This document shows, piece after piece, positions 45,564 through 58,965 of a stretch of 64,000 nt of DNA. The position numbers were made by a program, and so were the translations under genes. Below the pieces are notes generated by a model. The model made no database searches, was not told the origin of the DNA, and worked only from the letters and a program-made list of their open reading frames with translations. Every line of letters begins with the position of its first letter. Position 1 is the stretch's first letter. The DNA comes from Prevotella sp. UBA3757 (lineage in GTDB: Bacteria; Bacteroidota; Bacteroidia; Bacteroidales; Bacteroidaceae). The stretch is from NCBI GenBank assembly GCA_002371715.1, contig DFGF01000068.1, positions 2,032-66,031 of the forward strand, given 5' to 3'.

Positions 45564-45588
45564 GCGAAGAACTCGTAGGCACTGAGCC

Positions 45589-45640
45589 AGAATGTCGGGC
45601 TGGAATGTCATTGAGGCAGTGGCGTTTCAGCCCGATTTCT
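45589..45640 (+). terminator. Long hairpin after the 2831-aa gene, possible terminator
   Basis: tcgggctggaatgtcattg pairs with cagtggcgtttcagcccga (several G-U pairs); weak U-tract. Confidence 0.45.
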
Positions 45641-45807
45641 GATTATTTCCCGATTCCGTCGTGGCAAATTTGTCATTTTTTCGCGCCGTCAGTTATGAAA
45701 TCTCGAAAATTATATGTAACTTTGCGGGCGGATGGTGTAAACGTATGGCGTAAGGACAGGTACGTGCCATAAATTAGAAACGACAAATAACAGGAAAGGA
45801 CAAGGAC

Positions 45808-46054
45808 ATGATGAAAACCAGATATGACGGCTATCATTTCTCTGAAAAGTCGGAGGACATCTATAATCCATATAGTGTCCTAAGTGCCTTTGCTAATCAG
45901 AAAATCTCCAATTGACGCCCTCATGCAGATCAACAACAAAGGCTATGCCATCCCCTATGTGACTGAAGGCCGCAAAGTCGTGAAGGTCGGTGTCCAGTTC
46001 AATATTGAGACGCGGACCATCAGCGATTGGGAAATAGAGTCGGACAACGCGTAG
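45808..46054 (+). pseudogene. Remnant of an AAA-ATPase / PD-(D/E)XK nuclease (DUF1703/PDDEXK_9-type) gene
   Basis: 45808-45915 reads [28 protein letters not shown]. In a different frame, 45914-46054 reads DALMQINNKGYAIPY..EGRKVVKVGVQFNIETRTISDWEI. Upstream TAACTTTG at 45717-45724. Confidence 0.8.
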
Positions 46055-46105
46055 ATAACCCCAAAAAGGCCGAAGGCCTGTCCAAGGACCTTAACATTGT
46101 CAATG

Positions 46106-46230
46106 GCCGCAAGATCGTTAACGACGAGCCGCAAGGTCGTTGCCGACGAGCCGTAATCTCGTTAACGACGAGCCGTAATCTCGTTAACGACGAGCCGTAA
46201 TCTCGTTAACGACGAGCCATAATCCCGTTG
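46106..46230 (+). repeat. 22-bp tandem repeat, about 5.5 copies, with a TCGTTAACGA palindrome in four units
   Basis: gccgtaatctcgttaacgacga x3 exact, with flanking variants; no spacers. Confidence 0.92.
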
Positions 46231-46319
46231 ATTCATGGCATTGTCCTGTTTCCTGGGAAGAACAACGGTGCCCATTTGTTTTTTTTACGACTTTTCTTGG
46301 ACGTTCCAAAAAAAGTTCG

Positions 46320-46327
46320 TATATTTG
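46320..46327 (+). promoter_or_regulatory. -7 promoter element upstream of the structured leader and pilin operon
   Basis: TATATTTG followed by CAG, about 260 bp upstream of the ATG at 46585. Confidence 0.7.
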
Positions 46328-46329
46328 CA

Positions 46330-46545
46330 GCCAGAGTGGGAAGGACCCGCTCTGGCAGAAGAAGCGTTATGCACCAAACTTGCGGATGGAAACCCAGGAA
46401 ATTTTCTGAGCAAGAGCTGATAATAGCAGGAGGGCACGACGGCTGGCGCATTCATGCGTGGGGCTATATCTCCAATTTCTATTATCAGGTTATCCTAGGA
46501 CCTCCATCCGGAACTGGCACAAACAGTCCCCGCTTCTGTTATGCG
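46330..46545 (+). ncRNA. Candidate structured leader RNA / cis-regulatory element, family not recognised
   Basis: 5' hairpin 46330-46356, then nested complementary blocks 46360-66/46531-37, 46383-90/46503-10, 46393-99/46493-99 and 46417-26/46479-88. Confidence 0.55.
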
Positions 46546-46584
46546 TGGAGGTGAAAATCGAAACTATAATATATAATAAGGTAT

Positions 46585-49500
46585 ATGAGAAAACTACTAA
46601 GAACGGTATCAACAACAGCCAAGCACCGCTGTCTCTTGCCACTGTCGTTGCTGGCAGTTATGCTTTGTATACTGGCGGGCTGTAGCGATCAAGATGTCGT
46701 TTCTGTACCAACAGGTATGCAGCCGTTGCTGTTGAGCGGACAGATAGAGCAGGAGAATATCACCCGTGCCAACGACTTCGGATTTGTCGGCGGCGACCGC
46801 ATGGGCATCTATGTGGTAGACCGCGTGAACGGCGAGGCGGGCACGCTGGGAGCCACGGGCAATCGTGCCAGCAACGTTCTCTACACCCTTGACGGTGACA
46901 GCTATCGCTGGACATCGCCCACCAGCATCTATTGGCGTGACCAACAGACAGCTGTTGATGTCTATGGCTACTATCCGGGCATGAATTATATCGAGAACCC
47001 CATGGCTTATCAGTTTAGTGTACAGACCAACCAGAATACCGAGGCTGGCAACGGCGAACTCAGTGGCTACGAGCAAAGCGACCTACTGTGGGGCAAGGCC
47101 GCCAACGTTGCATACACCACAGAACAAATCGTCGTCAAGTACCATCATATCCTGGCTGGTGTGCATGTGGCGCTGGTCAAGGGTGAGGGCATTAGCGATG
47201 CGGAGTGGCAAAAACTCGAGAAAATCGTGCTCATAGACAATACCGTCACTGAGTCAACGGTCAATCTCGCCACAGGTGTGGTAGCCCTACAGGGAACAGC
47301 CGTTGTCCCCATCCGCATGTCACCGCAGGCGGGCGACCAGTACCGTGCTGTTGTCATACCCCAGCAGGTGGCCGCAGGCAAGCATTTGGTTAGTGTCACC
47401 CTTGATGGCCAGACTTACAGCCACTCGCTGTCGTCAGCCATGCAGTATCTGGCAGGCAAACTGCATCGTTTCACACTTACCGTCAACAGGCGTGACGCCG
47501 CTGGCGACTATGAACTGTCGCTGGCCTACGATGGCATCACGCCGTGGACGAATGACGAGTCGAGCCACCAGTTTTCGGCTTTGGCCTATGTCACCGTGCA
47601 TTGTCCGGAAATGGGTAAGCTTAAAGAGAGTATCGCCCAGGCAGGATATGATTATCAAACAATCCAGAACATGAAGGTGACGGGCGAACTGACAGAGTCG
47701 GACTTCTACATGATGCGCGACGAAATGCCAGAGTTGCATCATCTGAACCTCAAAGATGCCAAGTTGAAACATATCTGCTATTATAACGGCTGGCTAGTCC
47801 ATGGCAGCCATGACTACGATTTGTTCATGGATGACATGATGCCTACCAATGCGTTCTATGGCAATCAGAGCATTCGCTCGCTCACGCTGCCATCTGCACT
47901 GAAGCGCCTGGGCGGCAATTGTTTCCGCGAAATGAGGCTGATGTATAGCACATTAGAGATACCGGAAGGGGTGACGTATATTGATGGTGATGCTTTCAGC
48001 TATAACGAATATAACGGTGTGGAGTTGTTGCTCCCCATAACACTTGACAGCATCTGCGGCTCGTTCCGTGATTGCGGATACAAGTGTGAACTGAAACTCA
48101 GCGACAACATCTCATACATCGGAGAGGGATCATTTTCCGGTCAGAACGGCTGTCCCAATTTCTATGGTGTATTCCATCTGCCGTCAAAAATCAAAACGCT
48201 GGCACCAGGCATGTTCGCAGGATTAGGCCGTACGGGCAATTTCACCGGCACCATCGAGTTGCCACAGGGAATCACCGAGACACCAGACTACAATTATTGG
48301 GGCAGTTGGGGGCCAAGCCTCTCTAATCGTATCGAGCTTATCCTGCCTTCGACGATGAAGCGCGTGGGCGACCTCTCGCTTGGTGCATACGTCACGAAGC
48401 TACAGCTCAACGAGGGGCTGGAAGAGATTGGCTATGGCAACTTCAATGGCAATGCACCCTTCCCCCTGCATTTGCCCAGCACGTTGCGCTCCATTGACCA
48501 TGACTGTTTTGTCAGTTCCCTCTATGAGGGCGAACTGACCATTCCCGAACAGTGTCTTTACATCGGTCATGGATGTTTCCGTGGAAACGAGTTTACGAAG
48601 ATTAATCTTCCTTCGCGTTTAGAGGAAATACAGGCCGACTGTTTCCGCGATAACCGCTTACTGACCCAGATAACAATCCCCAAGTACGTAGACTACATAG
48701 GACAGGGAGCCTTTGACGGCTGTGATGCGCTTCAGACGGTTATCTGTCTGGCTCAGGATCCGCCTGAACTCGGAGGTGATATTTTCCAAGGAACGTTTTT
48801 TGACAAGTGTGTGTTACAGGTGCCCGAGGCATCGGTAGAACGGTATCGCCACACTGCTGGTTGGAATCAGTTCAAAAGTATCACTGCTTATCATGAACTG
48901 GCCTTTAACGTGGCTGAGATATTGGCACTTGACAAGGGCAACACAACGAAAGGCGTGATTCGCGCCGAAGGCGACTGGGAGATTAGCAGCAAGCCCGACT
49001 GGGTAACTGTAACTCCTGCTTCTGGCCATGGCAAGGAAGAACTGACCATCACGGTCAGTCCGTACAATGCGACAGGCGAGCGAAGCGGCCAGATTGTGTT
49101 CAAACTTGCAGGAAAGGACTACACCACCTATACTGATGTGCGTCAGGTGACGGTAGACGGCGTGAAGGAAGACCAGAAGTTTACCCTGCAGACAGCATCA
49201 GCAGGAGCCCCTCGCGTGATACCTATATTTATTGTTGGCGAAGGCTATGATGCCTTTGACGTTGCCAGCGGACAGTACATGCAAGACATGCAGCAGACAA
49301 TGGACCATCTGTTCTCGTGCGAACCCTACAAGACCTACAAGGACTACTTTACTGTTTCCACGGCCATTGCCGTCTCACCCGAGCATGGTATCAATGGTCG
49401 CGTACGCTTCCAGCCCGAGAACTGGTGGACCAGCAAGGACGACCTCGTCTGGCAATATGCCAAGGAGCACGGTGAGGGCATCACCGACGCGCGTCACGGT

Positions 49501-50052
49501 GAGACCACCGTCATCGTGGTGCAGAACACCAACTATCTGGGTGGAAATACCACCAATCTGAGCGACGACGGCTTTACCATCAGCTATCTGGGTAAGAGCA
49601 CCGATACCTATCCCTATTCGCAGCGTGAATACGTCTTGCGCGAGGTGGGCGGCGTAGCCTTCGGTCATCTTGGCGTAGAACAGGTGAGCCACTTCACCTT
49701 CCTGAAATCATGTACCTGCCCGGGGTGTAACGCTATGTGCAACTATCGGAATGCCAAGAAGAATGGGTGGTATGATAATATCTCACTGTCGGGCAAGATG
49801 AGTGAGGTGCCTTGGAAAGACCTTATCTTTGACAGCCGTTATGCTCAGTATGTAGACATCTACGAAGGCGGCTACAACCACGCCCGCGGCGTCTACCGTT
49901 CAGAGCATATGAGCATTATGGGCGACTCGTTCCTACCTTATTTCAACACCATCAGCCGTATGTCGATTGTTAAGCGCATCATGCAGTATAGCGGCAGCAC
50001 GTTCACGTTCGATGCCTTTAAAAGTAAAGACAAAATAGAGATACCTGAGTGA
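46585..50052 (+). CDS. Lipoprotein: Mfa-like fimbrillin + BspA-type LRR + BACON + degenerate M64-like peptidase domain
   Basis: Lipobox LAGC; ITR^A site; GDRMGIY, VYGYYP, SDLLW; LRR repeats; W...KPDWVTV.P.SG.G (BACON); IFIVGEGY; zinc motif altered to REVGGVAFGHLGVE; YEGG...GVYRS. Confidence 0.78.
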   Translation: MRKLLRTVSTTAKHRCLLPLSLLAVMLCILAGCSDQDVVSVPTGMQPLLLSGQIEQENITRANDFGFVGGDRMGIYVVDRVNGEAGTLGATGNRASNVLYTLDGDSYRWTSPTSIYWRDQQTAVDVYGYYPGMNYIENPMAYQFSVQTNQNTEAGNGELSGYEQSDLLWGKAANVAYTTEQIVVKYHHILAGVHVALVKGEGISDAEWQKLEKIVLIDNTVTESTVNLATGVVALQGTAVVPIRMSPQAGDQYRAVVIPQQVAAGKHLVSVTLDGQTYSHSLSSAMQYLAGKLHRFTLTVNRRDAAGDYELSLAYDGITPWTNDESSHQFSALAYVTVHCPEMGKLKESIAQAGYDYQTIQNMKVTGELTESDFYMMRDEMPELHHLNLKDAKLKHICYYNGWLVHGSHDYDLFMDDMMPTNAFYGNQSIRSLTLPSALKRLGGNCFREMRLMYSTLEIPEGVTYIDGDAFSYNEYNGVELLLPITLDSICGSFRDCGYKCELKLSDNISYIGEGSFSGQNGCPNFYGVFHLPSKIKTLAPGMFAGLGRTGNFTGTIELPQGITETPDYNYWGSWGPSLSNRIELILPSTMKRVGDLSLGAYVTKLQLNEGLEEIGYGNFNGNAPFPLHLPSTLRSIDHDCFVSSLYEGELTIPEQCLYIGHGCFRGNEFTKINLPSRLEEIQADCFRDNRLLTQITIPKYVDYIGQGAFDGCDALQTVICLAQDPPELGGDIFQGTFFDKCVLQVPEASVERYRHTAGWNQFKSITAYHELAFNVAEILALDKGNTTKGVIRAEGDWEISSKPDWVTVTPASGHGKEELTITVSPYNATGERSGQIVFKLAGKDYTTYTDVRQVTVDGVKEDQKFTLQTASAGAPRVIPIFIVGEGYDAFDVASGQYMQDMQQTMDHLFSCEPYKTYKDYFTVSTAIAVSPEHGINGRVRFQPENWWTSKDDLVWQYAKEHGEGITDARHGETTVIVVQNTNYLGGNTTNLSDDGFTISYLGKSTDTYPYSQREYVLREVGGVAFGHLGVEQVSHFTFLKSCTCPGCNAMCNYRNAKKNGWYDNISLSGKMSEVPWKDLIFDSRYAQYVDIYEGGYNHARGVYRSEHMSIMGDSFLPYFNTISRMSIVKRIMQYSGSTFTFDAFKSKDKIEIPE

Positions 50053-50053
50053 T

Positions 50054-53000
50054 ATGAAGAAAAGACCATTATTTTTATTATTAATAGCCTCGCTGCTCAC
50101 CGCCTGCCATGAGGATATCGCAACGGGACAGTCGGCCAAGCAGGGAGAACCGCTCGACCTCTCGGCAACGGTCAGCCAGGAGTATGTGACACGTGCCAGC
50201 GACGGCGGTTTTGCCAACGGCGACCAGATAGGTGTATTCATCGCTAACTACACCACCTCCGATGGCACCCAGTGGCGGGCATCAACGCTACAACTCACTG
50301 GCAACCATGCTGACAACGTGCGCTTCACCTATAATGAGAGCGAAGGCAAGTGGACGGCCAGTTATCAGCTCTATTGGAAAGACAAACAGACGCCTGTCGA
50401 TGCCTACGGCTACTACCCGTTTGACGGCGAACTAAGCAGCATAGAAGCCTACCCCTTTGTCGTGCAGAAGCGGCAGGATGCCAGGCTGCAGACTGGTCGA
50501 CAGCTTTCGGGCTATGAGGCCAGCGACTTCCTGTGGGCCAAGGCAGAAAACAAACTTCCACATCAGGGTCCCATCATGCTGAATCATCATCACCTGATGG
50601 CTGGCATCAAGGTGGTGCTGACCGAAGGTGAAGGCTTTGATGAAGGTGAATGGGAGAAGATAGAGAAGAAGGTGCAGGTCGAGGGTACCAAGCTGCAGAG
50701 CACTATTAACCTGCAGACCGGGACTGTCAGCATCGTTGCCAGTTCTTCTGTAGAATCCATCGTTCCCCAACAGAGCAGCGATACCTACCGTGCCGTTGTC
50801 GTTCCTCAAACAGTGGCAGCAGAGCAGACCCTTTTCTCCTTCACCATCGACGGGAAGAGCAGTACATTTGCCCGTAGTGGGTCCGTGTCCTATCTCTCAG
50901 GCAAACTCCACCAGTTTACATTTAGTGTCAACAAGTTGTTAGAACCAGGCGACTATGAGCTTAAACTGACCGATGAAACCATTACGGACTGGGAGAACGA
51001 CAGCAAGAGCCACAATGGCGAGGCACGTGAGTACGTCATGGTGCATGTCGGCGAACAACAGTTTTTAGGCGACGTCATCGAAAGCCTTGGACTTGACCCT
51101 TCGAAAATCGTCAATCTGAAAATAACAGGCTATTTAGGTAAGTCGATTGCCTGGTATGACGAATGGACAGGACAGCCCCACTACCTGCCTGGCTCAAGGC
51201 ATTTTGAATATATGCGCAATAACATGCCCAATCTGGAGGCACTTAATCTGAGGGAGATTGTCAATATCAACGGACCAGCTGAAGACTATGCTCATAGTTG
51301 GAAACAATCAGCAGGTATTGAAAAAGTTCAAAGCAATCCCTACGAACAAGATGTTTCCAATTACGACCACACACTGCCTTATTGCGCTTTTGAGAATATG
51401 GCATCATTGCGTTATTTCGTATGGCCAGAAAAGGGATTAGAAGCCATTGGTAGCATGGCGTTTGCTGGGTCGGGACTGAGCGGGTCACTGATACTGCCCG
51501 AAGGAGTGATTTATATAGGTGGATCAGTATTCTCTGCTTATGGCCATAAGGCATGTAGTTTGACGGGCGATGTTTACATTCCGTCAACGGTTGAATATAT
51601 TGGAGGAAGCGCTTTCGGCTCTAACGACGGAAATGTCAATATGTGCTTCTTCACAAACGAACTCATCTTGCCTGCCAAGATGAAGTATTTGGGAAGTAAT
51701 GCCTTTGGCGGTTGTCCTTACATGACAGGCACCATTCGTGTACCTGACGGCATCACCGAGCTGAACAATGCCTGGCCTGACCAGATTAAAGGTCCAGTTG
51801 TTATTCCGCAGGGTGTCAAGAAAATCAATGGCATACCACGCGGTGCCACCCACGTCAAGATACCCGAAGGCGTGGAAACCATTGGATCCCGTGCATTTGA
51901 GATGACGAAACTGCTCAGATGTGACGTTCAGCTTCCCTCAACGGTCAAGACGATAGGCGACAATGCTTTCGTGAACTCAGCCTTGACACACATCACACTG
52001 CCCGAAGGACTGGAACTGATAGAAGGGGCTACCTTCTATAATTGTGAGAACCTGCAGGACACGGTTGTCATTCCCTCTACTGTCACACAGATACGAGCTG
52101 ATGCTTTTGCCTACTGTAAGCAGCTTACAGCCATCATCCTGCCTGCTGGTCTGCAGGGCATACAGGATGAAGCCTTTGCCAACTGCTACTCGCTCGACTA
52201 CATCGAGTGCTTGGCCAGTGAGCCTCCAGCCATTGAGGAAAACACCTTCAGCGGCGTAGAGAAGGATAACTTCACAGTGGTAGTGCCTGAAGGTGCTGTG
52301 GAGGCATATAAGAATGCGCCCCACTGGAAAGAGTTCAAACGCATCTCGGCATACCGCAACTTCGTTTGCCGCCCCATGAAGGCCAAACTGCTGAATAAGA
52401 GTAATGTGCGCGACGTGGTGCTCAATGCCGACGGTAACTGGAGTGTCACCAGCTGTCCTACGTGGGCACACGTCAGCCAGACCTCCGGATCAAAGAAGAC
52501 AGAACTGAAGGTGGCCATTGACGCTATGGCGCATGGAAGTGGCGACCGCACGGGCGAGATTGTTTTCACCCTCAACCGCAAGGACGATGAAGGCAACCCC
52601 ATCACCTGCAAGTACACCATTGAGCAATATGACTATGAGATTGACGAGGATGCCGTCCTGACGCTGCAGACGCATTCAAAAGGCAACGGCATCAATATCC
52701 TCTTCGTGGGTGATGGCTACGATGCCGAGGATATAGCCCACGGCACCTATCGCACCGACATGGAGCAGGAAATGGCATATTTCTTTGGCGTGGAGCCATA
52801 CAAGACCTATCGCCCATACTTCAATGTCTCGGCAGCTATGGCTATGAGCTACGAGAGCGGAGCGGTCGACTCGCCCGACAAGTGGCGCAACACGAAGTTC
52901 AACATCACCTGGGGTGCCGGCAATAACGGTCGCTTGGCCGTGCCGTTTGACGACATTGCCACCTACGTTCTCACCGGTATTACCAACAGTCCCGTGACAG

Positions 53001-53683
53001 CTGCCAATGTCGGCAATTCGCTCATTATCTGCGTGCCCAACAGCGATGCCTACGAAGGTCTGACTGCTATGTATGGCGACGGTTCGGCCATTGCCGTATG
53101 TCCGATGAGTAAGCTGGACTATCCTAACGATGCCCGCGGACTCATTCAGCACGAGGCCGGTGGTCACGGATGGGCGAAACTTGACGACGAGTATGTTTAC
53201 CACCGCGACAATATCCATACCTGTCCCTGTCTATGCTGCTCTCACGTGGATGGCATACAGTCGATGCACGCCATGGGGTGGGGACGTAACCTTTCACTCT
53301 CAGGCAAATATAGCGACGTGCCATGGAGTCACCTCATCAACCATTCGCAATATCGCGACATCGTAGATATTTATGAGGGTGGCCATATGCACGCACGCGG
53401 TGTCTATCGCTCAGAGGTAAACTCCGTCATGAACAACAACGTGCCCTATTTCAGTTCGTGGTCGCGCCAGATTATTGTGGAGCGCATCAAGAAGGTTGCC
53501 GGCGAGAAGTTCTCGTTCGAAGAGTTCGTAGCAAACGACAGTCGTCAGCAGGGCGATAAGTTCCTGGCAGCACGAAGGAGTACTCCTGTCTTCAACGAGC
53601 AACCAGTCTATAGCGAGCACCACCATCCAGTCATTAAACCAGGTCGTATGACCGACTATGTGAAGAAAGGAGGCAAAAGATGA
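50054..53683 (+). CDS. Lipoprotein: Mfa-like fimbrillin + LRR + BACON + M64-like metallopeptidase
   Basis: Lipobox LTAC; VTR^A; GDQIGVF, AYGYYP, SDFLW; LRRs; ILFVGDGY, EPYKTYRPYFNV, HEAGGHGWAKLDDEY and YEGG...GVYRSEVNSVM. Confidence 0.8.
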   Translation: MKKRPLFLLLIASLLTACHEDIATGQSAKQGEPLDLSATVSQEYVTRASDGGFANGDQIGVFIANYTTSDGTQWRASTLQLTGNHADNVRFTYNESEGKWTASYQLYWKDKQTPVDAYGYYPFDGELSSIEAYPFVVQKRQDARLQTGRQLSGYEASDFLWAKAENKLPHQGPIMLNHHHLMAGIKVVLTEGEGFDEGEWEKIEKKVQVEGTKLQSTINLQTGTVSIVASSSVESIVPQQSSDTYRAVVVPQTVAAEQTLFSFTIDGKSSTFARSGSVSYLSGKLHQFTFSVNKLLEPGDYELKLTDETITDWENDSKSHNGEAREYVMVHVGEQQFLGDVIESLGLDPSKIVNLKITGYLGKSIAWYDEWTGQPHYLPGSRHFEYMRNNMPNLEALNLREIVNINGPAEDYAHSWKQSAGIEKVQSNPYEQDVSNYDHTLPYCAFENMASLRYFVWPEKGLEAIGSMAFAGSGLSGSLILPEGVIYIGGSVFSAYGHKACSLTGDVYIPSTVEYIGGSAFGSNDGNVNMCFFTNELILPAKMKYLGSNAFGGCPYMTGTIRVPDGITELNNAWPDQIKGPVVIPQGVKKINGIPRGATHVKIPEGVETIGSRAFEMTKLLRCDVQLPSTVKTIGDNAFVNSALTHITLPEGLELIEGATFYNCENLQDTVVIPSTVTQIRADAFAYCKQLTAIILPAGLQGIQDEAFANCYSLDYIECLASEPPAIEENTFSGVEKDNFTVVVPEGAVEAYKNAPHWKEFKRISAYRNFVCRPMKAKLLNKSNVRDVVLNADGNWSVTSCPTWAHVSQTSGSKKTELKVAIDAMAHGSGDRTGEIVFTLNRKDDEGNPITCKYTIEQYDYEIDEDAVLTLQTHSKGNGINILFVGDGYDAEDIAHGTYRTDMEQEMAYFFGVEPYKTYRPYFNVSAAMAMSYESGAVDSPDKWRNTKFNITWGAGNNGRLAVPFDDIATYVLTGITNSPVTAANVGNSLIICVPNSDAYEGLTAMYGDGSAIAVCPMSKLDYPNDARGLIQHEAGGHGWAKLDDEYVYHRDNIHTCPCLCCSHVDGIQSMHAMGWGRNLSLSGKYSDVPWSHLINHSQYRDIVDIYEGGHMHARGVYRSEVNSVMNNNVPYFSSWSRQIIVERIKKVAGEKFSFEEFVANDSRQQGDKFLAARRSTPVFNEQPVYSEHHHPVIKPGRMTDYVKKGGKR

Positions 53684-56600
53684 AAAGTTACACCATATTA
53701 TATTATTTAGCCCTACCGCTGTTGCTGCTTGCGTCCTGCGCTGAGGAGATAACCGACAGCACCACCGCTGACAAGAAGAACGCGCAACCCATCCGTCTGG
53801 TCTCGGCCTATCCGGGTGTCGTTACCCGTGCCACGATTGATGGTGGCTTTTCAGTGGGCGACGAGATGGGAGTCTTTGTCGTAGACCGTAATGCCGAAGG
53901 AGAAGTCGGCGAAATGGCGCTGCGGGGCAATCGTGCCTCGAACATGCGTTTCACGTTGAACGACGATGGAACATGGGCATCACCGACACAACTTTATTGG
54001 AGTGAGAAAGGCAATAGTGCTGATTTCTATGGTTACTATCCGTTCGACGGTAACCTGTCGTCAGTCACTGCCTATCCATTCACCATTGCTGAGAAGCAGG
54101 ACGAAACGCTACGTTCCAGTGGTATGAGTGGCTATATAGCCAGTGACCTGTTGTGGGCCCGTCAGCAGAATGTGAAACCTACTGCGGAGACCGTCACGCT
54201 ACAGTACCGTCACCTGATGGCCGGCATCACCCTTCGTTTAGAGATGGGTACGGGCTTCACAGCCGAAGAGTGGGCGCAATTGGAGAAAAAAGTGTTCCTG
54301 TGTAACACCATTCTTAGCGGTACCGTCAACCTTCAGGAAGGTACAGTCCAGGCAGGCGATTCCGACGCAGGCCTTATCACGCCTCTCCCTCACGGAGGCG
54401 CAGCCTCCTATCGTGCCGTTGTTTTTCCACAGACTGTAGCTGCTGGTAAGGCGTTAGTTTCTGTGATGATAGATGGACGCGACTATTTCCTGAAGAAGAA
54501 CGAACCGATGGTCTACCTTTCGGGTAAGATGCACCAGTTTACCGTCACCGTCAACCGTTCAACGGCTACGGGCGATTACACCTTGTCACTCGACGACGAG
54601 AGCATCACACCGTGGGTTGACGACCCAGACCTGCACGAAGGTCTGGTACGCCAGTATCTGGTGGTGGGACTGTCAGAAGCGGGCACGCTGGCCGCCAAAC
54701 TTGCCGAGATGGGCAAGAATCCAGCCGACCTGTTGGCCTTAAAAATTGTGGGACCAGTAAACGGCAGTGACTATCAGACCATCAACCTGATGAAGAAGCT
54801 GACGCATCTGAACCTCATCAAGGCTATCCCTGAGGGAGAACGTCTCTATGGCATCGAATGGATTCCATTGGAAAAAGTGTTCTTCCCGGAAAAGGGCCTG
54901 AAATATCTTGACGGCTTCAACGAGACCCATTTGCGCGGTTCGCTGGTCATTCCTGAGGGTGTTGAGGAAGTGGGCGGTTTCTGGGGGAACGACTTTTCCG
55001 GTACATTGACGCTGCCGTCAACGCTTAAAGTTATGAGGATGCTCATCGACCCGTTCAAGGGCGATATTGCTATTCCTGACCAGATAGAGGTGTGGGAACC
55101 CACAGGATTCGGAGGTACCAAGTTGACAGGTACGCTGAACCTACCTTCTACGTTGAAGAAACTGAAGTATGTACCTTCTGGCTTGACAGGTACTATCAGT
55201 ATTCCGCAGGGATGTGAACTGACTGATATTGGTACTTTTTCGGGTTCTCAATGTACAGCTCTTATTCTGCCGGAAGGTATGACAGACATTCTGCATACAA
55301 CGTTCTTGAATTCAGAAATTCGGGGCGAGGTCCTTCTACCTTCCACGATTACACATATAGGACCAAGTGCTTTTGCGGGTTCAAAGATTTCAAAAATTAC
55401 ATTTCCTGATGCATTAAGACAGATGGACGATGGTGGTTATAACTTTGAAGGTATTTTTGCTGACTGCTCTCGTCTTTCCGGAACCATCAGATTACCCAAG
55501 AACGTTGCTCGCATACCAAAGGGATGTTTTCTCCATTGTAGTATGTTGGAAGGGCTGGTAATTCCAGCAGGAACAGCAATCCTTGATGAATTATGTTTTG
55601 CAGGATGCAACAATCTGAACTCCATCGTCTGTGAAGGCGAGGAGCCACCCTTTGTGGTAGACGGCGCTTTCGAAGGCGTGCCGAAAGACAACTTCACCGT
55701 TGAGGTGCCTGCGGGCTGTGTGGAGAAATATCGCAATGCCATAGGATGGAGCGAGTTCAAGCGTATTGCGGAATACAGCAACTTCGTATGCCGTCCTGCT
55801 CAGGCTCAGGCCTTGAACACGGCCCATAGTGAACAGTTGACACTTAACGCCGATGGCAACTGGACTGTAGCAAGCAAGCCCGACTGGGTGACGCTCTCGG
55901 CCACCACCGGCACAGGTAAGACACCGATTACGCTGACTTTCCAGCCGCTGGCAAAAGGTGCTGGAAACCGAACAGGAGAAGTGGTATTTCAGATGGTCCA
56001 TGAGGGAAAGACCGTCAGTACTGCCTGTACTGTCAGCCAGTTCGACTATCAATACGATGAGGACTACTGCCACACACTGCAGACCCACAGCAAGGGACGC
56101 GGCATCGACATCGTCTTTGTGGGCGACGGTTGGGATGGTGCCTCTATCAGCGACGGTTCGTATCTCAACTTGATAAAATACCAGGCGGAGTGCTTCTTTG
56201 CCATCGAGCCATACCGCTCCATGCGCGAATACTTCAACGTATATGTCACCTTCCCCCTGTCGCAGGAGAAAGGGGTGAACACGATGAGCCACTATGTGAA
56301 CAATCGCTTCGGCACCCTGCAGGGCTGGTCGTCGCTCATTCAGGGCTCACAGGCAGATTGCACTTCTACCCAGTTGATAATGGAAACCTATGAGGTGGAA
56401 CAGTATGTTGCCAGCAAGACTCCCGTAGAACAGGACAACCTGTGGCGCACACTGGTCATTGCCGTGCCGAACACTACCGATTACGAGGGTAATACCGTGT
56501 TCAACATTGGCGGAATGGCTATCTCCATCTGTCCTCCTTCAGAGCAGGCTTATCCGCGTGATACCCGTGGTACCATTCAGCATGAAGCAGGCGGACATGG

Positions 56601-57126
56601 CTTTGGCAAGCTGGGCGACGAGAACATCAGCCGCAATGCCTTTGCTACCTATTCTGTGAAGTCGCAGATTGACGATATGCACAGTCGTGGCTGGTACGAT
56701 AATCTGGCCACTACGGGTAAGTTACACGACGTGCCTTGGGCAGAATTCATCTTTGATGCTGCCTATAGTGACTATGTCGATGTCTACGAGGGCGGCTATG
56801 GCTATACGCGCGGTATTTATCGCCCCGAGGCTAACTCTTGCATGAACTATGGCATACCTTATTATAATACACCTTCACGCCTGTCCATCTATAAACGCAT
56901 CAAGCAGTATGCTGGTGAGAGCTGGACGATGGAGGAGTTTCGAGCCCAGGATACCTTCGAATGGGGACCGACGGAAGTCACGCGTTCAGCGGCGCATCAG
57001 ACTGACAACCTGACGCCGATAACCAGTGGTAATCATCATGCTCCTACGCTTGTCCGTTTCCGTGAGACAAGTGACAAGGTTCGTGCAATTCGGGAAAGAC
57101 TAAAGAATGAAAGAAATAAAAGATGA
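53680..57126 (+). CDS. Lipoprotein: Mfa-like fimbrillin + LRR + BACON + M64-like metallopeptidase
   Basis: Lipobox LASC; VTR^A; GDEMGVF, FYGYYP, SDLLW; LRRs; IVFVGDGW, EPYRSMREYFNV, HEAGGHGFGKLGDE and YEGG...GIYRPEANSCM. Confidence 0.8.
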   Translation: MKSYTILYYLALPLLLLASCAEEITDSTTADKKNAQPIRLVSAYPGVVTRATIDGGFSVGDEMGVFVVDRNAEGEVGEMALRGNRASNMRFTLNDDGTWASPTQLYWSEKGNSADFYGYYPFDGNLSSVTAYPFTIAEKQDETLRSSGMSGYIASDLLWARQQNVKPTAETVTLQYRHLMAGITLRLEMGTGFTAEEWAQLEKKVFLCNTILSGTVNLQEGTVQAGDSDAGLITPLPHGGAASYRAVVFPQTVAAGKALVSVMIDGRDYFLKKNEPMVYLSGKMHQFTVTVNRSTATGDYTLSLDDESITPWVDDPDLHEGLVRQYLVVGLSEAGTLAAKLAEMGKNPADLLALKIVGPVNGSDYQTINLMKKLTHLNLIKAIPEGERLYGIEWIPLEKVFFPEKGLKYLDGFNETHLRGSLVIPEGVEEVGGFWGNDFSGTLTLPSTLKVMRMLIDPFKGDIAIPDQIEVWEPTGFGGTKLTGTLNLPSTLKKLKYVPSGLTGTISIPQGCELTDIGTFSGSQCTALILPEGMTDILHTTFLNSEIRGEVLLPSTITHIGPSAFAGSKISKITFPDALRQMDDGGYNFEGIFADCSRLSGTIRLPKNVARIPKGCFLHCSMLEGLVIPAGTAILDELCFAGCNNLNSIVCEGEEPPFVVDGAFEGVPKDNFTVEVPAGCVEKYRNAIGWSEFKRIAEYSNFVCRPAQAQALNTAHSEQLTLNADGNWTVASKPDWVTLSATTGTGKTPITLTFQPLAKGAGNRTGEVVFQMVHEGKTVSTACTVSQFDYQYDEDYCHTLQTHSKGRGIDIVFVGDGWDGASISDGSYLNLIKYQAECFFAIEPYRSMREYFNVYVTFPLSQEKGVNTMSHYVNNRFGTLQGWSSLIQGSQADCTSTQLIMETYEVEQYVASKTPVEQDNLWRTLVIAVPNTTDYEGNTVFNIGGMAISICPPSEQAYPRDTRGTIQHEAGGHGFGKLGDENISRNAFATYSVKSQIDDMHSRGWYDNLATTGKLHDVPWAEFIFDAAYSDYVDVYEGGYGYTRGIYRPEANSCMNYGIPYYNTPSRLSIYKRIKQYAGESWTMEEFRAQDTFEWGPTEVTRSAAHQTDNLTPITSGNHHAPTLVRFRETSDKVRAIRERLKNERNKR

Positions 57127-57989
57127 ATGATATGAAGAAAATTGGACTATTAGCTGTCGCAGTACTGATGATGGCTGCGTGCAGCAATGACGAGACAAGT
57201 GAACAGGGCTATAAGGCTGACAATGGAGAGATGCTGTTCCAATTCGTTTATCCGGGCGTGACGCGTGCCACGGACACGAATTTTGAAAACACCGACAAGA
57301 TTGGTGTCTATGTGACGGCAAAGGATGAGCCGTTGCAGATTGGCGGCAATGAGGTGAACAACGAGCTGTTTACCTATAACGGGTCGTCGTGGACGTCAAG
57401 CCGCAAAGTATATTGGAACACGGGCAGCCACGACGTGTACGCCTATTATCCTTATTCAAAAACGGTGAACGACATCAGCGATTACGCGTTCCAAGTACAG
57501 GCCGACCAGAGCACGGCGGCGGGCTATACGGCCAGCGATTTCCTGTGGGCAGGCAAAAAAGGCGTAGCGGCTTCGGCCTCGCCCGTCACCATGACCTTTG
57601 CCCATAAGCTGTCGAACGTGGTGGTGAAACTGGAGAAGGGGGAGAACTATACAGGCGACATTCCTGCTTCGACGGAGGTGTATGTTCACTCGACGGTGAC
57701 AAAAGCGGTTATTGACCTCTCTACAGGCGATGCCGCCAAGGATAATTATGCAGGTACAGGGTCGGTGCGCTGTCGTCAGAAGTCGGCCACTGAGTATGTC
57801 GCTTGCGTGGTGCCGCAGAACATCACGACGCGCCGCCCGCTGGTGGAGGTTATCAGTGGCGGGGTGAGCTACTTGATGGAGGGTAAGATTTCGCTGAAGC
57901 CCGGCATGCGCCATACCATCACCGTGACGCTGGATAAGAATCCTGAGCAGACCAAGATTGACATCGGTGGCAGCATCGAGGGATGGTAA
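57123..57989 (+). CDS. Stand-alone fimbrillin (Mfa-like type V pilin) lipoprotein
   Basis: Lipobox MAAC; VTR^A; DKIGVY, VYAYYPY, SDFLWA, FAHKLS and VVPQ; ends GGSIEGW. The start could be 57132. Confidence 0.85.
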   Translation: MNDMKKIGLLAVAVLMMAACSNDETSEQGYKADNGEMLFQFVYPGVTRATDTNFENTDKIGVYVTAKDEPLQIGGNEVNNELFTYNGSSWTSSRKVYWNTGSHDVYAYYPYSKTVNDISDYAFQVQADQSTAAGYTASDFLWAGKKGVAASASPVTMTFAHKLSNVVVKLEKGENYTGDIPASTEVYVHSTVTKAVIDLSTGDAAKDNYAGTGSVRCRQKSATEYVACVVPQNITTRRPLVEVISGGVSYLMEGKISLKPGMRHTITVTLDKNPEQTKIDIGGSIEGW

Positions 57990-57997
57990 TTTCTTAA

Positions 57998-58028
57998 GTG
58001 AAGAATGAAGAATGAAGAGTGAAGAATG
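57998..58028 (+). repeat. Heptad array (RTGAAGA x4), intergenic
   Basis: gtgaaga atgaaga atgaaga gtgaaga atg. Confidence 0.85.
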
Positions 58029-58065
58029 CAACGCCATACTCTCAAAAAGAGAATTTGCTACCGCC

Positions 58066-58965
58066 ATGAATAAGGCGATAATTGGTTGCTGGCTTTTGGC
58101 CATAGGACTTACGGCATGCAGCAGTGATGATGCCGGAAGCTCGCAGGAATCTGACGTGCCGCCAGTGGAGAACCGTCAGACCGTAGATATTGTGACGCGC
58201 TCTGAGGGTGATGGCATCAGCGGAAGTGGTTTGAAGGCTGGCCTTTATATGGTGAACTATGCCGACGAACAGCAGATGCCGCTGCTGGCAAGCGGCAACT
58301 ATGTCAACAATCTGCTGATGAACCATAGTGATGGGGCATGGCAGCCGACTACGCCCATCTACTGGCAGAACAGCAATGTGAATGCCGACTTCTATGCCTA
58401 TGCTCCTTATGCCGCAGAGGTGAGTGATGCCAGGGCTATGATGTTTCGTGTAGCTACTGACCAGACGTCAGATGATGCGTATAATAAAAGCGACCTGCTT
58501 TGGGGAGCTGTCCAGGGGCAGTCGCCATTGGCCGGAAAATTCAACCTGATGTTGAACCATGTGCTGAGCAGTTTGACGATTGTTGTGGTCCCTGGTGCTG
58601 GATTCAGTGAAGGTGAACTGACTACTAATGATGTTTCTGTTAGCATCGGAGGAAGCAAGACACTTGGGACAATAGACCTGCAAACCGGCATAGTTACTGC
58701 TACCGGTGAAGTGGCTGACGTTAAATGCCGAAGCAATAGCGACCTGACTTATTCTGCTATTCTGCTGCCTCAACAGATAGCATTCGCTAATTTGGTGAAG
58801 GTTGACTGGAACGGCAATAGCTATACACTTCAGAATTCCTTCAAACTGGAAGCTAAGAAGCAATACCGGCTGACAATCAAATTAAACAAAACGCAGGGTG
58901 GACTGGACATTGGTATCAGTGGCTGGGATATCATCGACGAGGACTTTGGTGGTACTGTCGGATAA
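58066..58965 (+). CDS. Stand-alone fimbrillin (Mfa-like type V pilin) lipoprotein
   Basis: Lipobox LTAC; VTR^S; FYAYAPY, SDLLWG, LNHVLS, AILLPQ and ISGW. Start set at 58066 because the ATG at 58012 lies within the heptad array. Confidence 0.82.
   Translation: MNKAIIGCWLLAIGLTACSSDDAGSSQESDVPPVENRQTVDIVTRSEGDGISGSGLKAGLYMVNYADEQQMPLLASGNYVNNLLMNHSDGAWQPTTPIYWQNSNVNADFYAYAPYAAEVSDARAMMFRVATDQTSDDAYNKSDLLWGAVQGQSPLAGKFNLMLNHVLSSLTIVVVPGAGFSEGELTTNDVSVSIGGSKTLGTIDLQTGIVTATGEVADVKCRSNSDLTYSAILLPQQIAFANLVKVDWNGNSYTLQNSFKLEAKKQYRLTIKLNKTQGGLDIGISGWDIIDEDFGGTVG

What the first reader, a model, noticed from the sequence alone, without database searches (positions are those of the whole stretch)
46330..46554. 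Unrecognised ~220-nt structured leader between a canonical promoter and the pilin operon
Seen: just after TATATTTG (46320-27) is an 11-bp hairpin (gccagagtggg/cccgctctggc). Four nested helices follow: agaagcg/cgcttct, cggatgga/tccatccg, cccagga/tcctagg and ctgataatag/ctattatcag, with an inner cgca-ttca-tgcg hairpin. The inner gcgtggggct (46456-65) is also partly complementary to agtccccgc (46525-33), which overlaps the outer helix, so two alternative folds are possible. The same stretch encodes an uninterrupted 61-codon ORF (46369-46554, MHQTCGWKPRK...). Inference: a cis-regulatory RNA switch, attenuator or antitermination leader for a transcript of 12 kb or more, or a small mobile promoter cassette. 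I cannot assign it to a known RNA family.
Basis: partly seen in the sequence, partly recalled or inferred. Interest (0 to 1): 0.75.

Follow-up and report, generated by a model that had tools for sequence, protein, structure and literature searches.

The report
Undescribed folded mRNA leader of Bacteroidia
The stretch before the pilin operon is one copy of a large, previously uncatalogued family of folded RNA leaders that sits between a promoter and the start codon of many unrelated accessory genes (surface proteins, defence genes, a beta-lactamase) across Bacteroidia, so it looks like a portable expression module whose mechanism is still unknown.

Summary
Window 46330-46540 (+) holds a 5'-terminal hairpin and a ~180-nt rod of nested helices directly after a TAnnTTTG promoter and 45 nt before the first pilin gene.

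It is not a one-off. A covariance model built from 13 homologs finds full-length copies in:
- 91 of 150 genomes of the same family (1-7 copies each);
- 42 of 148 genomes sampled across the order (up to 13 copies);
- 17 genomes of other orders of the class.

Helices covary strongly. G.U pairs outnumber A.C about 8 to 1, so the fold is selected on the sense strand, as RNA.

About two thirds of copies add a hairpin just before the start codon. Its loop pairs, with compensatory changes, with the 3' base of the rod, forming a pseudoknot. The window's copy is divergent and lacks this partner.

No Rfam 15 family matches. The 61-codon ORF is not conserved.

Downstream genes are unrelated to each other and mostly envelope or mobile-element cargo genes. 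Orthologous pilin operons in related genomes lack the leader.

Best reading: a portable, gene-independent cis-acting 5' leader. The mechanism is inferred, and the run-finding tool needed for expression data was closed.

First readers of this scan noted the same rod in five other genomes; none was followed up.

The parts
46239..46333 (+). Promoter region. It ends at the predicted transcription start. It is a paralog of a promoter elsewhere in the same genome.
   Evidence: 84% identical to G000:C111:7502-7597, which drives a PDDEXK_9/AAA-ATPase-type gene. The similarity stops where the 5' hairpin begins.
46320..46327 (+). -7 box TATATTTG of a Bacteroidetes sigma-A type promoter (TAnnTTTG).
   Evidence: Read. 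A TAnnTTTG-like box lies 35-67 nt before the conserved core in 51 of 63 copies examined, mostly at 43-56 nt. The motif alone is common: 26 in the window against about 15 expected.
46330..46356 (+). P0: 5'-terminal hairpin, 11 bp with a 5-nt loop, at the predicted 5' end of the transcript.
   Evidence: -18.3 kcal/mol, z = -5.4. A hairpin of different sequence occupies the same place in nearly all Bacteroidaceae-type copies.
46358..46539 (+). Rod: the conserved core of the leader family, with helices P1-P6 and an apical hairpin.
   Evidence: Covariance model R1 hit, 108.4 bits, E = 8.5e-24, model positions 1-172. Covariation is shown.
46369..46554 (+). 61-codon open frame inside the rod. Judged non-coding.
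   Evidence: No Pfam match. The frame is not conserved in homologs.
46540..46584 (+). 45-nt A/U-rich spacer between the rod and the start codon. It lacks the pseudoknot hairpin present in about two thirds of family members.
   Evidence: The best duplex with the rod 3' segment is only -3.3 kcal/mol, rank 50 of 62.
46585..58965 (+). Downstream operon of five Mfa-like fimbrillin genes. Three are fused to LRR_5, BACON and peptidase M64 domains.
   Evidence: Pfam hits. Genes are packed with gaps of 36 nt or less.
45594..45636 (+). Terminator-like hairpin after the upstream 2831-aa gene. It marks the end of the preceding transcription unit.
   Evidence: 20-bp stem followed by a T-rich tail.

Best explanation
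Window 46330-46584 is a divergent member of an uncatalogued family of structured 5' mRNA leaders that is widespread in class Bacteroidia.

Shown:
- A promoter is followed at once by a 5'-terminal hairpin (P0), then a 165-180-nt rod of six covarying helices with near-invariant internal-loop nucleotides.
- In about two thirds of copies a small hairpin follows, whose loop forms a 7-9-bp pseudoknot with the 3' base of the rod.
- The start codon comes a median of 49 nt after the rod.
- The fold is selected on the sense strand.
- The genes that follow are unrelated to each other.

Inferred:
- The element acts in cis, at the RNA level, as a gene-independent expression module.
- The terminal hairpin and the compact rod protect and insulate the 5' end of the mRNA.
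- The rod, with the pseudoknot where present, holds the translation-initiation region in a defined setting.
- It is read by a conserved host component (ribosome, RNA polymerase or a general RNA-binding protein), not by a gene-specific ligand.
- In this window the module, joined to a locally duplicated promoter, has replaced the ancestral control region of the pilin-peptidase operon and now drives it.
For: - Structure: 48 pairs are 91% paired, against 38-46% when the partners are slid. 17 pairs have compensatory changes, and 0 of 500 shuffles reach the observed values.
- Strand: 96.4% paired on the sense strand against 85.7% on the antisense strand; G.U 12% against A.C 1.5%.
- Spread: 91/150 genomes of the family, 42/148 of the order, plus 17 genomes of other orders, all full-length hits.
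- Fixed layout: a TAnnTTTG-like box lies 35-67 nt (mostly 43-56) before the core, and a 5' hairpin is present, in most copies. The rod-to-ATG distance has median 49 nt, IQR 45-62.
- Pseudoknot: 42/62 copies have a duplex of -8 kcal/mol or better. Cognate partners of variant sequences rank 1-7 of 62. The 7-bp helix is 89% paired against 17-50% when slid, with 12 double-change cells against 5.2 +/- 1.8 in shuffles. The partner lies in a local hairpin in 36/41.
- Gene independence: 17 of 30 downstream proteins have no Pfam family. The rest span LRR_5, GT4, UDP-glucose dehydrogenase, MBOAT, trypsin, hydrolase and others. RM-type methylases follow in other orders. blaMUN-1 follows on B. uniformis pBUN1, directly after mobV, and a DUF4433 gene follows on a P. 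distasonis replicon.
- Near-identical rod 3' end, spacer and gene start occur in genomes of different families: L048/L065 are identical, L033/L066 nearly so.
- Replacement in this window: related pilin-LRR-M64 operons in 6 of 60 genus genomes have no rod. The nearest (57% identity) follows a LuxR-type regulator gene.
- The window's own promoter is a paralog of another promoter in the genome, and the similarity ends at the transcription start.
Against: - There are no expression data.
- The stabilising or translation-positioning role is inference from layout only.
- A simple stabiliser would not need such conserved loop nucleotides.
- The window's copy scores low (108 bits against 150-188 for typical copies) and lacks both the pseudoknot partner and the conserved linker, so it may work differently or only in part.
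- Downstream proteins are enriched for N-terminal hydrophobic segments (73% against 39%). That could instead point to a specific envelope-linked regulon.
- Sequences for the pseudoknot alignment were chosen by duplex energy, which inflates its percentage paired.
Confidence: 0.5

Rival explanations
1. Processive antitermination RNA, like the put RNA of phage HK022 or the EAR element. The nascent rod would bind the RNA polymerase that made it and make it resistant to Rho-dependent or intrinsic termination. That would allow foreign or very long operons, such as this one of 12 kb or more, to be read through.
For: - It lies immediately after the promoter in nearly all copies.
- It is independent of the gene that follows, and some copies are on mobile elements.
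- Conservation across a whole class fits a conserved target such as RNA polymerase.
- It heads polysaccharide-type genes and this long operon.
Against: - Many downstream units appear to be single small genes.
- The tight spacing to the start codon and the hairpin or pseudoknot beside it are not needed for antitermination.
- No Rfam antitermination family matches.
Confidence: 0.15
2. Processed RNA. The leader would either be a self-cleaving ribozyme that gives the mRNA a defined 5' end, or be released as a stable small RNA of about 170-230 nt that acts in trans.
For: - It is a large pseudoknotted fold with invariant unpaired nucleotides.
- It is multi-copy with no consistent gene association, as is typical of self-cleaving ribozymes.
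- In low-GC variants the closing helix ends in a run of U that could act as a terminator.
Against: - The U run is not conserved in Bacteroidaceae-type copies.
- No known ribozyme or sRNA family matches.
- The constant short distance to a start codon argues for action in cis.
Confidence: 0.12
3. Riboswitch or thermosensor. The rod would be an aptamer or sensor, and the pseudoknot with the hairpin before the start codon would be the expression platform.
For: - Conserved internal loops plus a long-range pairing that touches the region before the start codon.
- One third of copies lack the platform, as if regulation were optional.
Against: - The downstream genes have no common pathway.
- The unbranched rod has no multi-helix junction.
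- No terminator/antiterminator pair is seen.
Confidence: 0.08
4. DNA-level element: a recombination site for exchanging cargo, a single-strand promoter of a conjugative leading region, or a MITE.
For: - It lies at the mob/cargo boundary of mobilisable elements.
- Copies sit near contig ends in multi-copy genomes.
- Near-identical cassettes occur in different families.
Against: - The 8:1 excess of G.U over A.C shows selection on the sense strand only.
- The promoter lies outside the hairpin, not within it.
- Copies differ by compensatory changes rather than being near-identical repeats.
- The window's genome has only one copy.
- Only 3 of 48 upstream neighbours are integrases.
Confidence: 0.07
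5. The 61-codon ORF (46369-46554) encodes a small protein or leader peptide.
For: An uninterrupted frame with an ATG. The ATG is invariant in Bacteroidaceae-type copies.
Against: - In 12 homologs the frame stops after 4-8 codons, with indels that shift the frame.
- Low-GC and other-order variants have no ATG there.
- No Pfam match.
- The ATG lies in a covarying helix.
Confidence: 0.01

Closest known systems
5' stabiliser leaders, such as the E. coli ompA 5' UTR and the B. subtilis aprE and ermC leaders (comparison from my own knowledge)
   Same: A hairpin at the very 5' end of the mRNA, followed by further structure before the start codon. Often on envelope-protein mRNAs. They act in cis.
   Different: Those are gene-specific and short. 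This is a module of about 230 nt shared by hundreds of unrelated genes across a class. It has conserved loop nucleotides and a pseudoknot.
put RNA of phage HK022 and the EAR element (processive antitermination RNAs; from my own knowledge)
   Same: Structured RNA placed directly after a promoter. Carried by mobile DNA or long operons. Independent of the gene that follows.
   Different: No sequence or model similarity (Rfam scans). put is two short stem-loops. This element keeps a fixed short distance to the start codon.
tetQ leader of CTnDOT (translational attenuation in a Bacteroides mobile element; from my own knowledge)
   Same: A structured leader before a cargo gene of a Bacteroides mobile element that controls translation initiation.
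   Different: The tetQ leader depends on a conserved 3-codon leader peptide and on antibiotic-stalled ribosomes. Here the short frame is neither conserved in length nor present in distant variants.
Bacteroides and Segatella sRNAs: FopS/GibS, ScnR157, and 6S (Bacteroidales-1)
   Same: Multi-copy or conserved non-coding RNAs of Bacteroidales with canonical TAnnTTTG promoters.
   Different: - FopS is a single-stranded seed plus a terminator hairpin, and is in Rfam.
- ScnR157 probe primers do not match.
- Bacteroidales-1/6S is in Rfam and does not match.
Integron attC sites and the repetitive intergenic sequences of rAID-1 arrays
   Same: Imperfect hairpins that recur between unrelated accessory genes. 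Occasional tandem arrays.
   Different: attC sites lie 3' of cassettes, fold as bottom-strand DNA and need an integrase. This element has a promoter, lies 5' of the gene and is selected on the sense strand. The rAID-1 motifs could not be compared because no sequences were available.

Membership tests
Any Rfam 15 family (including 6S, Bacteroidales-1, 6S-Flavo, FopS, EAR, riboswitches, ribozymes) | A match to the family covariance model. | tested here: not met
   cmscan at E <= 1 found nothing overlapping the element in window 44000-48000, in five best-scoring copies or in five copies from other orders.
New leader family defined here (model R1) | Full-length match to the 172-position, 48-pair model. 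| tested here: met
   Window 46358-46539, 108.4 bits, E = 8.5e-24, model positions 1-172. The window sequence was one of the 13 used to build the model, so the match is partly by construction.
New leader family defined here (model R1) | Promoter and 5'-terminal hairpin directly upstream. | tested here: met
   TATATTTG at 46320-27 and an 11-bp hairpin at 46330-56. The conserved AAGACAUAUUAGAAAA linker is missing from the window.
New leader family defined here (model R1) | Pseudoknot between the rod 3' segment and the loop of a hairpin before the start codon. | tested here: not met
   Window best duplex is -3.3 kcal/mol, rank 50/62. About 20 of 62 copies share this lack.
Metabolite riboswitch | Downstream genes belong to one pathway or transport function. 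| tested here: not met
   Downstream proteins are heterogeneous.
Metabolite riboswitch | Ligand-dependent change of structure. | not testable with these tools
   Needs in-line or SHAPE probing.
6S RNA | Single housekeeping gene per genome, a large central bubble, and not in a 5' UTR. | tested here: not met
   1-13 copies per genome, always followed closely by an ORF, and no large central bubble in the consensus.
Leader-peptide attenuator (tetQ or erm type) | A conserved short ORF within the leader. | tested here: not met
   The frame length varies from 4 to 61 codons, and the ATG is absent from distant variants.
Integron attC, MITE or ssDNA promoter | Structure selected on DNA (either strand or the bottom strand); terminal inverted repeats with a target duplication; or promoter boxes inside the hairpin. 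| tested here: not met
   Sense-strand excess of G.U over A.C. The promoter lies outside the rod. The window's genome has one copy. Target-site duplications were not looked for systematically.
Processive antitermination RNA (put-like) | Modifies RNA polymerase in cis to read through terminators. | not testable with these tools
   Only the position after the promoter is consistent.

The most novel reading that the evidence does not exclude
The rod-pseudoknot leader is a class-wide, horizontally spread 'universal expression adaptor'. It would be an RNA that directly engages the Bacteroidia ribosome, which does not use Shine-Dalgarno pairing, or the RNA polymerase. Any newly acquired gene placed behind it (resistance, defence or surface genes) would then be expressed in any Bacteroidia host. 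That would be a bacterial counterpart of an IRES or put element, spread by mobile elements.
Probability: 0.25. Interest if true: 0.9.

Novelty: new variant of a known kind. Interest (0 to 1): 0.75.

Why it matters
Bacteroidia dominate gut, oral and rumen microbiomes, start translation without Shine-Dalgarno pairing, and have few characterised RNA regulators.

A structured leader of about 230 nt recurs hundreds of times before unrelated accessory genes. These include a beta-lactamase on a mobilisable replicon, restriction-modification genes and many surface proteins. Such an element would be a general determinant of how acquired genes are expressed in these bacteria.

It would also offer:
- a marker for cargo slots of mobile elements;
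- a ready-made expression part for Bacteroides and Prevotella genetics;
- a well-defined new target for RNA structure and RNA-protein work, with rich covariation and a pseudoknot.

For this window, it identifies the control region of an unusual pilin-peptidase operon as a recent replacement.

Tried and rejected
- Rfam scans at E <= 1 of the window, of five top copies and of five copies from other orders found no family.
- Coding reading of the 61-codon ORF: rejected.
- Leader-peptide (uORF) idea: rejected. The ATG is missing in distant variants and lies in a covarying helix.
- 6S RNA, FopS/GibS and ScnR157 identities: rejected.
- Motif strings were not found in the supplements of the S. copri and B. 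thetaiotaomicron transcriptome papers.
- The rAID-1 intergenic repeats could not be compared, because no sequences were held.
- A literature search on the cfxA/Tn4555 promoter gave nothing usable.
- Prezza et al. 2022 is not held.
- The 7-nt complementarity in the window between 46549-46555 (UGGAGGU) and 46500-46506 (ACCUCCA) is about what chance gives (my estimate, about 0.4 expected), so it was dropped.
- The stem of the hairpin before the start codon was misaligned by MAFFT (54% paired). Only the pseudoknot helix was scored formally.
- The rod was searched for before related pilin operons and not found.

Full report
**Observation**

- A TATATTTG box lies at 46320-27.
- A perfect 11-bp hairpin lies at 46330-56.
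- Nested helices follow: 46360-66/46531-37, 46383-90/46503-10, 46394-400/46493-99 and 46417-26/46479-88, closing on a small apical hairpin.

The minimum-energy fold of 46328-46560 reproduces these helices at -84.5 kcal/mol, z = -3.2 against dinucleotide shuffles.

The first pilin gene starts at 46585. It and the next four genes carry Mfa_like_1 domains, and three of them are fused to LRR_5, BACON and peptidase M64 domains. A terminator-like hairpin at 45594-45636 follows the upstream 2831-aa gene. The operon therefore needs its own promoter.

**It is a family**

A DNA search of 300 genomes of the same family gave short collinear matches to two separate parts of the element in several genera. 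Aligned, thirteen sequences share:
- a promoter box;
- a variable hairpin;
- a conserved core, AGAAGCGUUAUGC ... GAAAAC ... GGAAAUUUUCA ... CACGC-loop-GCGUGGGCUG ... UUUUCCUAGGACCUUCA ... CAGUUCCACGCUUCU.

RNAalifold and a cleaned 48-pair structure show strong covariation:
- 91% of cells are paired, against 38-46% when the 3' partners are slid;
- 17 pairs have changes on both sides;
- none of 500 shuffles reaches the observed values.

A covariance model (R1) gave the following full-length hits.

| Sample | Genomes with a hit | Copies per genome |
|---|---|---|
| Window's own genome | one copy only | 1 |
| Same family | 91 of 150 (23 of 27 genera) | 1-7 |
| Same order (about one or two genomes per family) | 42 of 148 | up to 13 |
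| Other orders of the class | 17 | mostly 1 |

Named carriers in public replicon records are Parabacteroides distasonis, Phocaeicola massiliensis, Bacteroides finegoldii, B. uniformis and Prevotella sp. oral taxon 299. There is also one phage contig.

**RNA, not DNA**

Across two model-guided alignments, 96.4% and 93.3% of cells pair on the sense strand. On the antisense strand the figures are 85.7% and 84.2%. G.U makes up 11-12% of cells and A.C 1.5-2%. These alignments are fitted to the model, which should be kept in mind.

**Layout of the whole leader**

- A TAnnTTTG-like box lies 35-67 nt (mostly 43-56) before the core in 51 of 63 copies examined.
- The transcript would then begin with a hairpin (P0) of variable sequence. 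A conserved single-stranded linker, AAGACAUAUUAGAAAA, follows.
- After the rod, the first long ORF starts a median of 49 nt downstream, interquartile range 45-62.
- In 42 of 62 distinct copies the spacer holds a segment, consensus (U)GUGGAACUG, that is complementary to CAGUUCCAC at the 3' base of the rod, just before the closing helix.
- Variant rods have matching variant partners. L072, L080, L083, L056, L046, L051, L037, L070 and L077 are examples. Nine variant copies (L037, L046, L054, L056, L070, L072, L077, L080a, L080b) have cognate partners ranked 1-7 of 62.
- On an unguided MAFFT alignment of 41 such copies, the 7-bp helix is 89% paired, against 17-50% when slid. It has 12 double-change cells against 5.2 +/- 1.8 in shuffles (0 of 500). 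Those 41 copies were chosen by duplex energy, so the percentage paired is biased upward. The cognate-versus-shuffled contrast is not.
- The partner lies inside a local hairpin in 36 of 41 copies. The interaction crosses both the closing helix and that hairpin, so it is a pseudoknot.

**The window's copy**

It is a divergent member, at 108 bits against 150-188 for typical copies.
- All rod helices are kept, by compensatory changes.
- The linker is missing.
- There is an 11-nt insertion between P3 and P4.
- No pseudoknot partner is present (-3.3 kcal/mol).

About one third of copies share the lack of a partner.

**What follows the leader**

Downstream genes are unrelated to one another. Of 30 scanned, 17 have no Pfam family. 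The others are LRR_5 proteins, a GT4 glycosyltransferase, a UDP-glucose dehydrogenase, an MBOAT, a trypsin-like protease, an alpha/beta hydrolase, and proteins with MORN, TM2, DUF1266, DUF4595, Zn_ribbon_2 or DUF3795 domains.

Further contexts:
- In other orders, three of the five copies examined precede genes whose N-termini I read, from my own knowledge and without a family search, as restriction-modification methylases.
- On B. uniformis pBUN1 the complete leader, pseudoknot included, lies between the stop of mobV and blaMUN-1, 51 nt before its ATG.
- A P. distasonis replicon has the same backbone followed by a DUF4433 gene.

By a crude hydrophobicity test, 73% of 64 downstream proteins have an N-terminal hydrophobic segment. 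The figure for 2067 ORFs of the window's genome is 39%. The copies are not independent, so the p-value overstates the effect.

Upstream neighbours include 4 Mob_Pre relaxases, one MobA-type relaxase and 3 integrases among 48. Ordinary housekeeping genes also occur.

The rod 3' end, the spacer and the start of the gene are identical in L048 and L065, and nearly so in L033 and L066. Each pair comes from genomes of different families. Tandem copies exist.

**Replacement at this locus**

Related pilin-LRR-M64 operons occur in 6 of 60 other genomes of the genus, and none has the rod. The nearest, at 57% identity, starts about 50 nt after a LuxR-type regulator gene.

The window's promoter region, 46239-46333, is 84% identical to a promoter elsewhere in the same genome that drives a PDDEXK_9-type gene. 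The similarity ends exactly where P0 begins. The control region here is therefore a mosaic of a local promoter and the leader.

**What it is not**

- No Rfam 15 family matches.
- The 61-codon frame is not conserved. Homologs stop after 4-8 codons, and distant variants lack the ATG.
- FopS/GibS, ScnR157 and the Bacteroidales 6S RNA are different molecules.
- I found no description of the element in the literature searches I could run. It may still sit unnamed in large candidate lists.

**Interpretation**

Three things are shown. It is a conserved, sense-strand RNA structure. It is fixed between a promoter and a start codon. It is independent of the gene that follows.

The rest is inferred. It works in cis as a portable expression module: 5' protection and insulation, plus a defined setting for translation initiation. 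Its nearly invariant loop nucleotides across a whole class and across mobile elements point to a conserved host machine as the partner, not a gene-specific ligand.

Rivals are processive antitermination, a ribozyme or released sRNA, a sensor RNA, and a DNA-level site. They cannot be separated without expression and mutational data.

**Earlier notes of this scan**

First readers described the same rod in five other genomes, and none was followed up. One of them called the helices purely Watson-Crick and foldable on either strand. The family-wide G.U excess contradicts that as a general statement. Another placed the rod between a mob gene and a beta-lactamase gene, which matches what I saw on pBUN1.

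Noticed in passing
L087:3900-4230 (B. uniformis NBRC 113350 plasmid pBUN1, NZ_AP019725.1 about 106267-106597): A complete copy of the leader (promoter TACTTTTG, 5' hairpin, rod, pseudoknot hairpin) fills the gap between the mobV stop codon and the extended-spectrum beta-lactamase gene blaMUN-1. So the expression signals of this resistance gene are this leader.
   Followed up: partly
L101, L102, L103 (genomes of other orders of the class): In orders other than Bacteroidales the leader is mostly single-copy. In three of the five copies examined it precedes genes whose N-termini look like restriction-modification or defence-type DNA methylases. I judged this by eye and ran no family search.
   Followed up: no
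L048 vs L065; L033 vs L066: The rod 3' end, the spacer and the start of the following gene are identical (L048/L065) or nearly identical (L033/L066) in genomes assigned to different families of the order. This indicates recent horizontal transfer of whole cassettes.
   Followed up: no
L078:4000-4375 (-); L080:1249-2541; L081:2723-4342: Tandem arrangements occur. In one locus two rods lie back to back, 46 nt apart, before one gene. In others there are arrays of small secreted-protein genes, each with its own promoter and leader, 1.1-1.4 kb apart.
   Followed up: no
window 46239-46333 and G000:C111:7502-7597 (L002:1501-1596): A 95-bp promoter region is duplicated at 84% identity within this genome. 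The second copy drives a PDDEXK_9/AAA-ATPase-type gene. A C-terminal fragment of such a gene lies at window 45884-46054, just upstream of the leader.
   Followed up: partly
window 46130-46220: Four or so tandem 22-bp units (cgttaacgacgagccgtaatct) lie between the PDDEXK_9 fragment and the promoter. Another first-reader note (e1-5456548) already covers them.
   Followed up: no
L090:2560-3200 (-) (G491, nearest related pilin-LRR-M64 gene): The related operon in this genome starts about 50 nt after a LuxR/GerE-type response-regulator gene instead of the leader. That suggests the ancestral control of these pilin-peptidase operons was a two-component-type regulator.
   Followed up: no
window 44604-44667: A short run of repeated ACGTT/GAACGTT units inside the 2831-aa gene gives spurious weak miRNA-model hits in Rfam. 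It is a low-complexity coding repeat.
   Followed up: no
G313, G338, G368, G308 (order-level genomes): Genomes with 7-13 copies have many of them within a few hundred bases of contig ends. In these lineages the leader, or what it is attached to, seems repetitive enough to break assemblies.
   Followed up: partly
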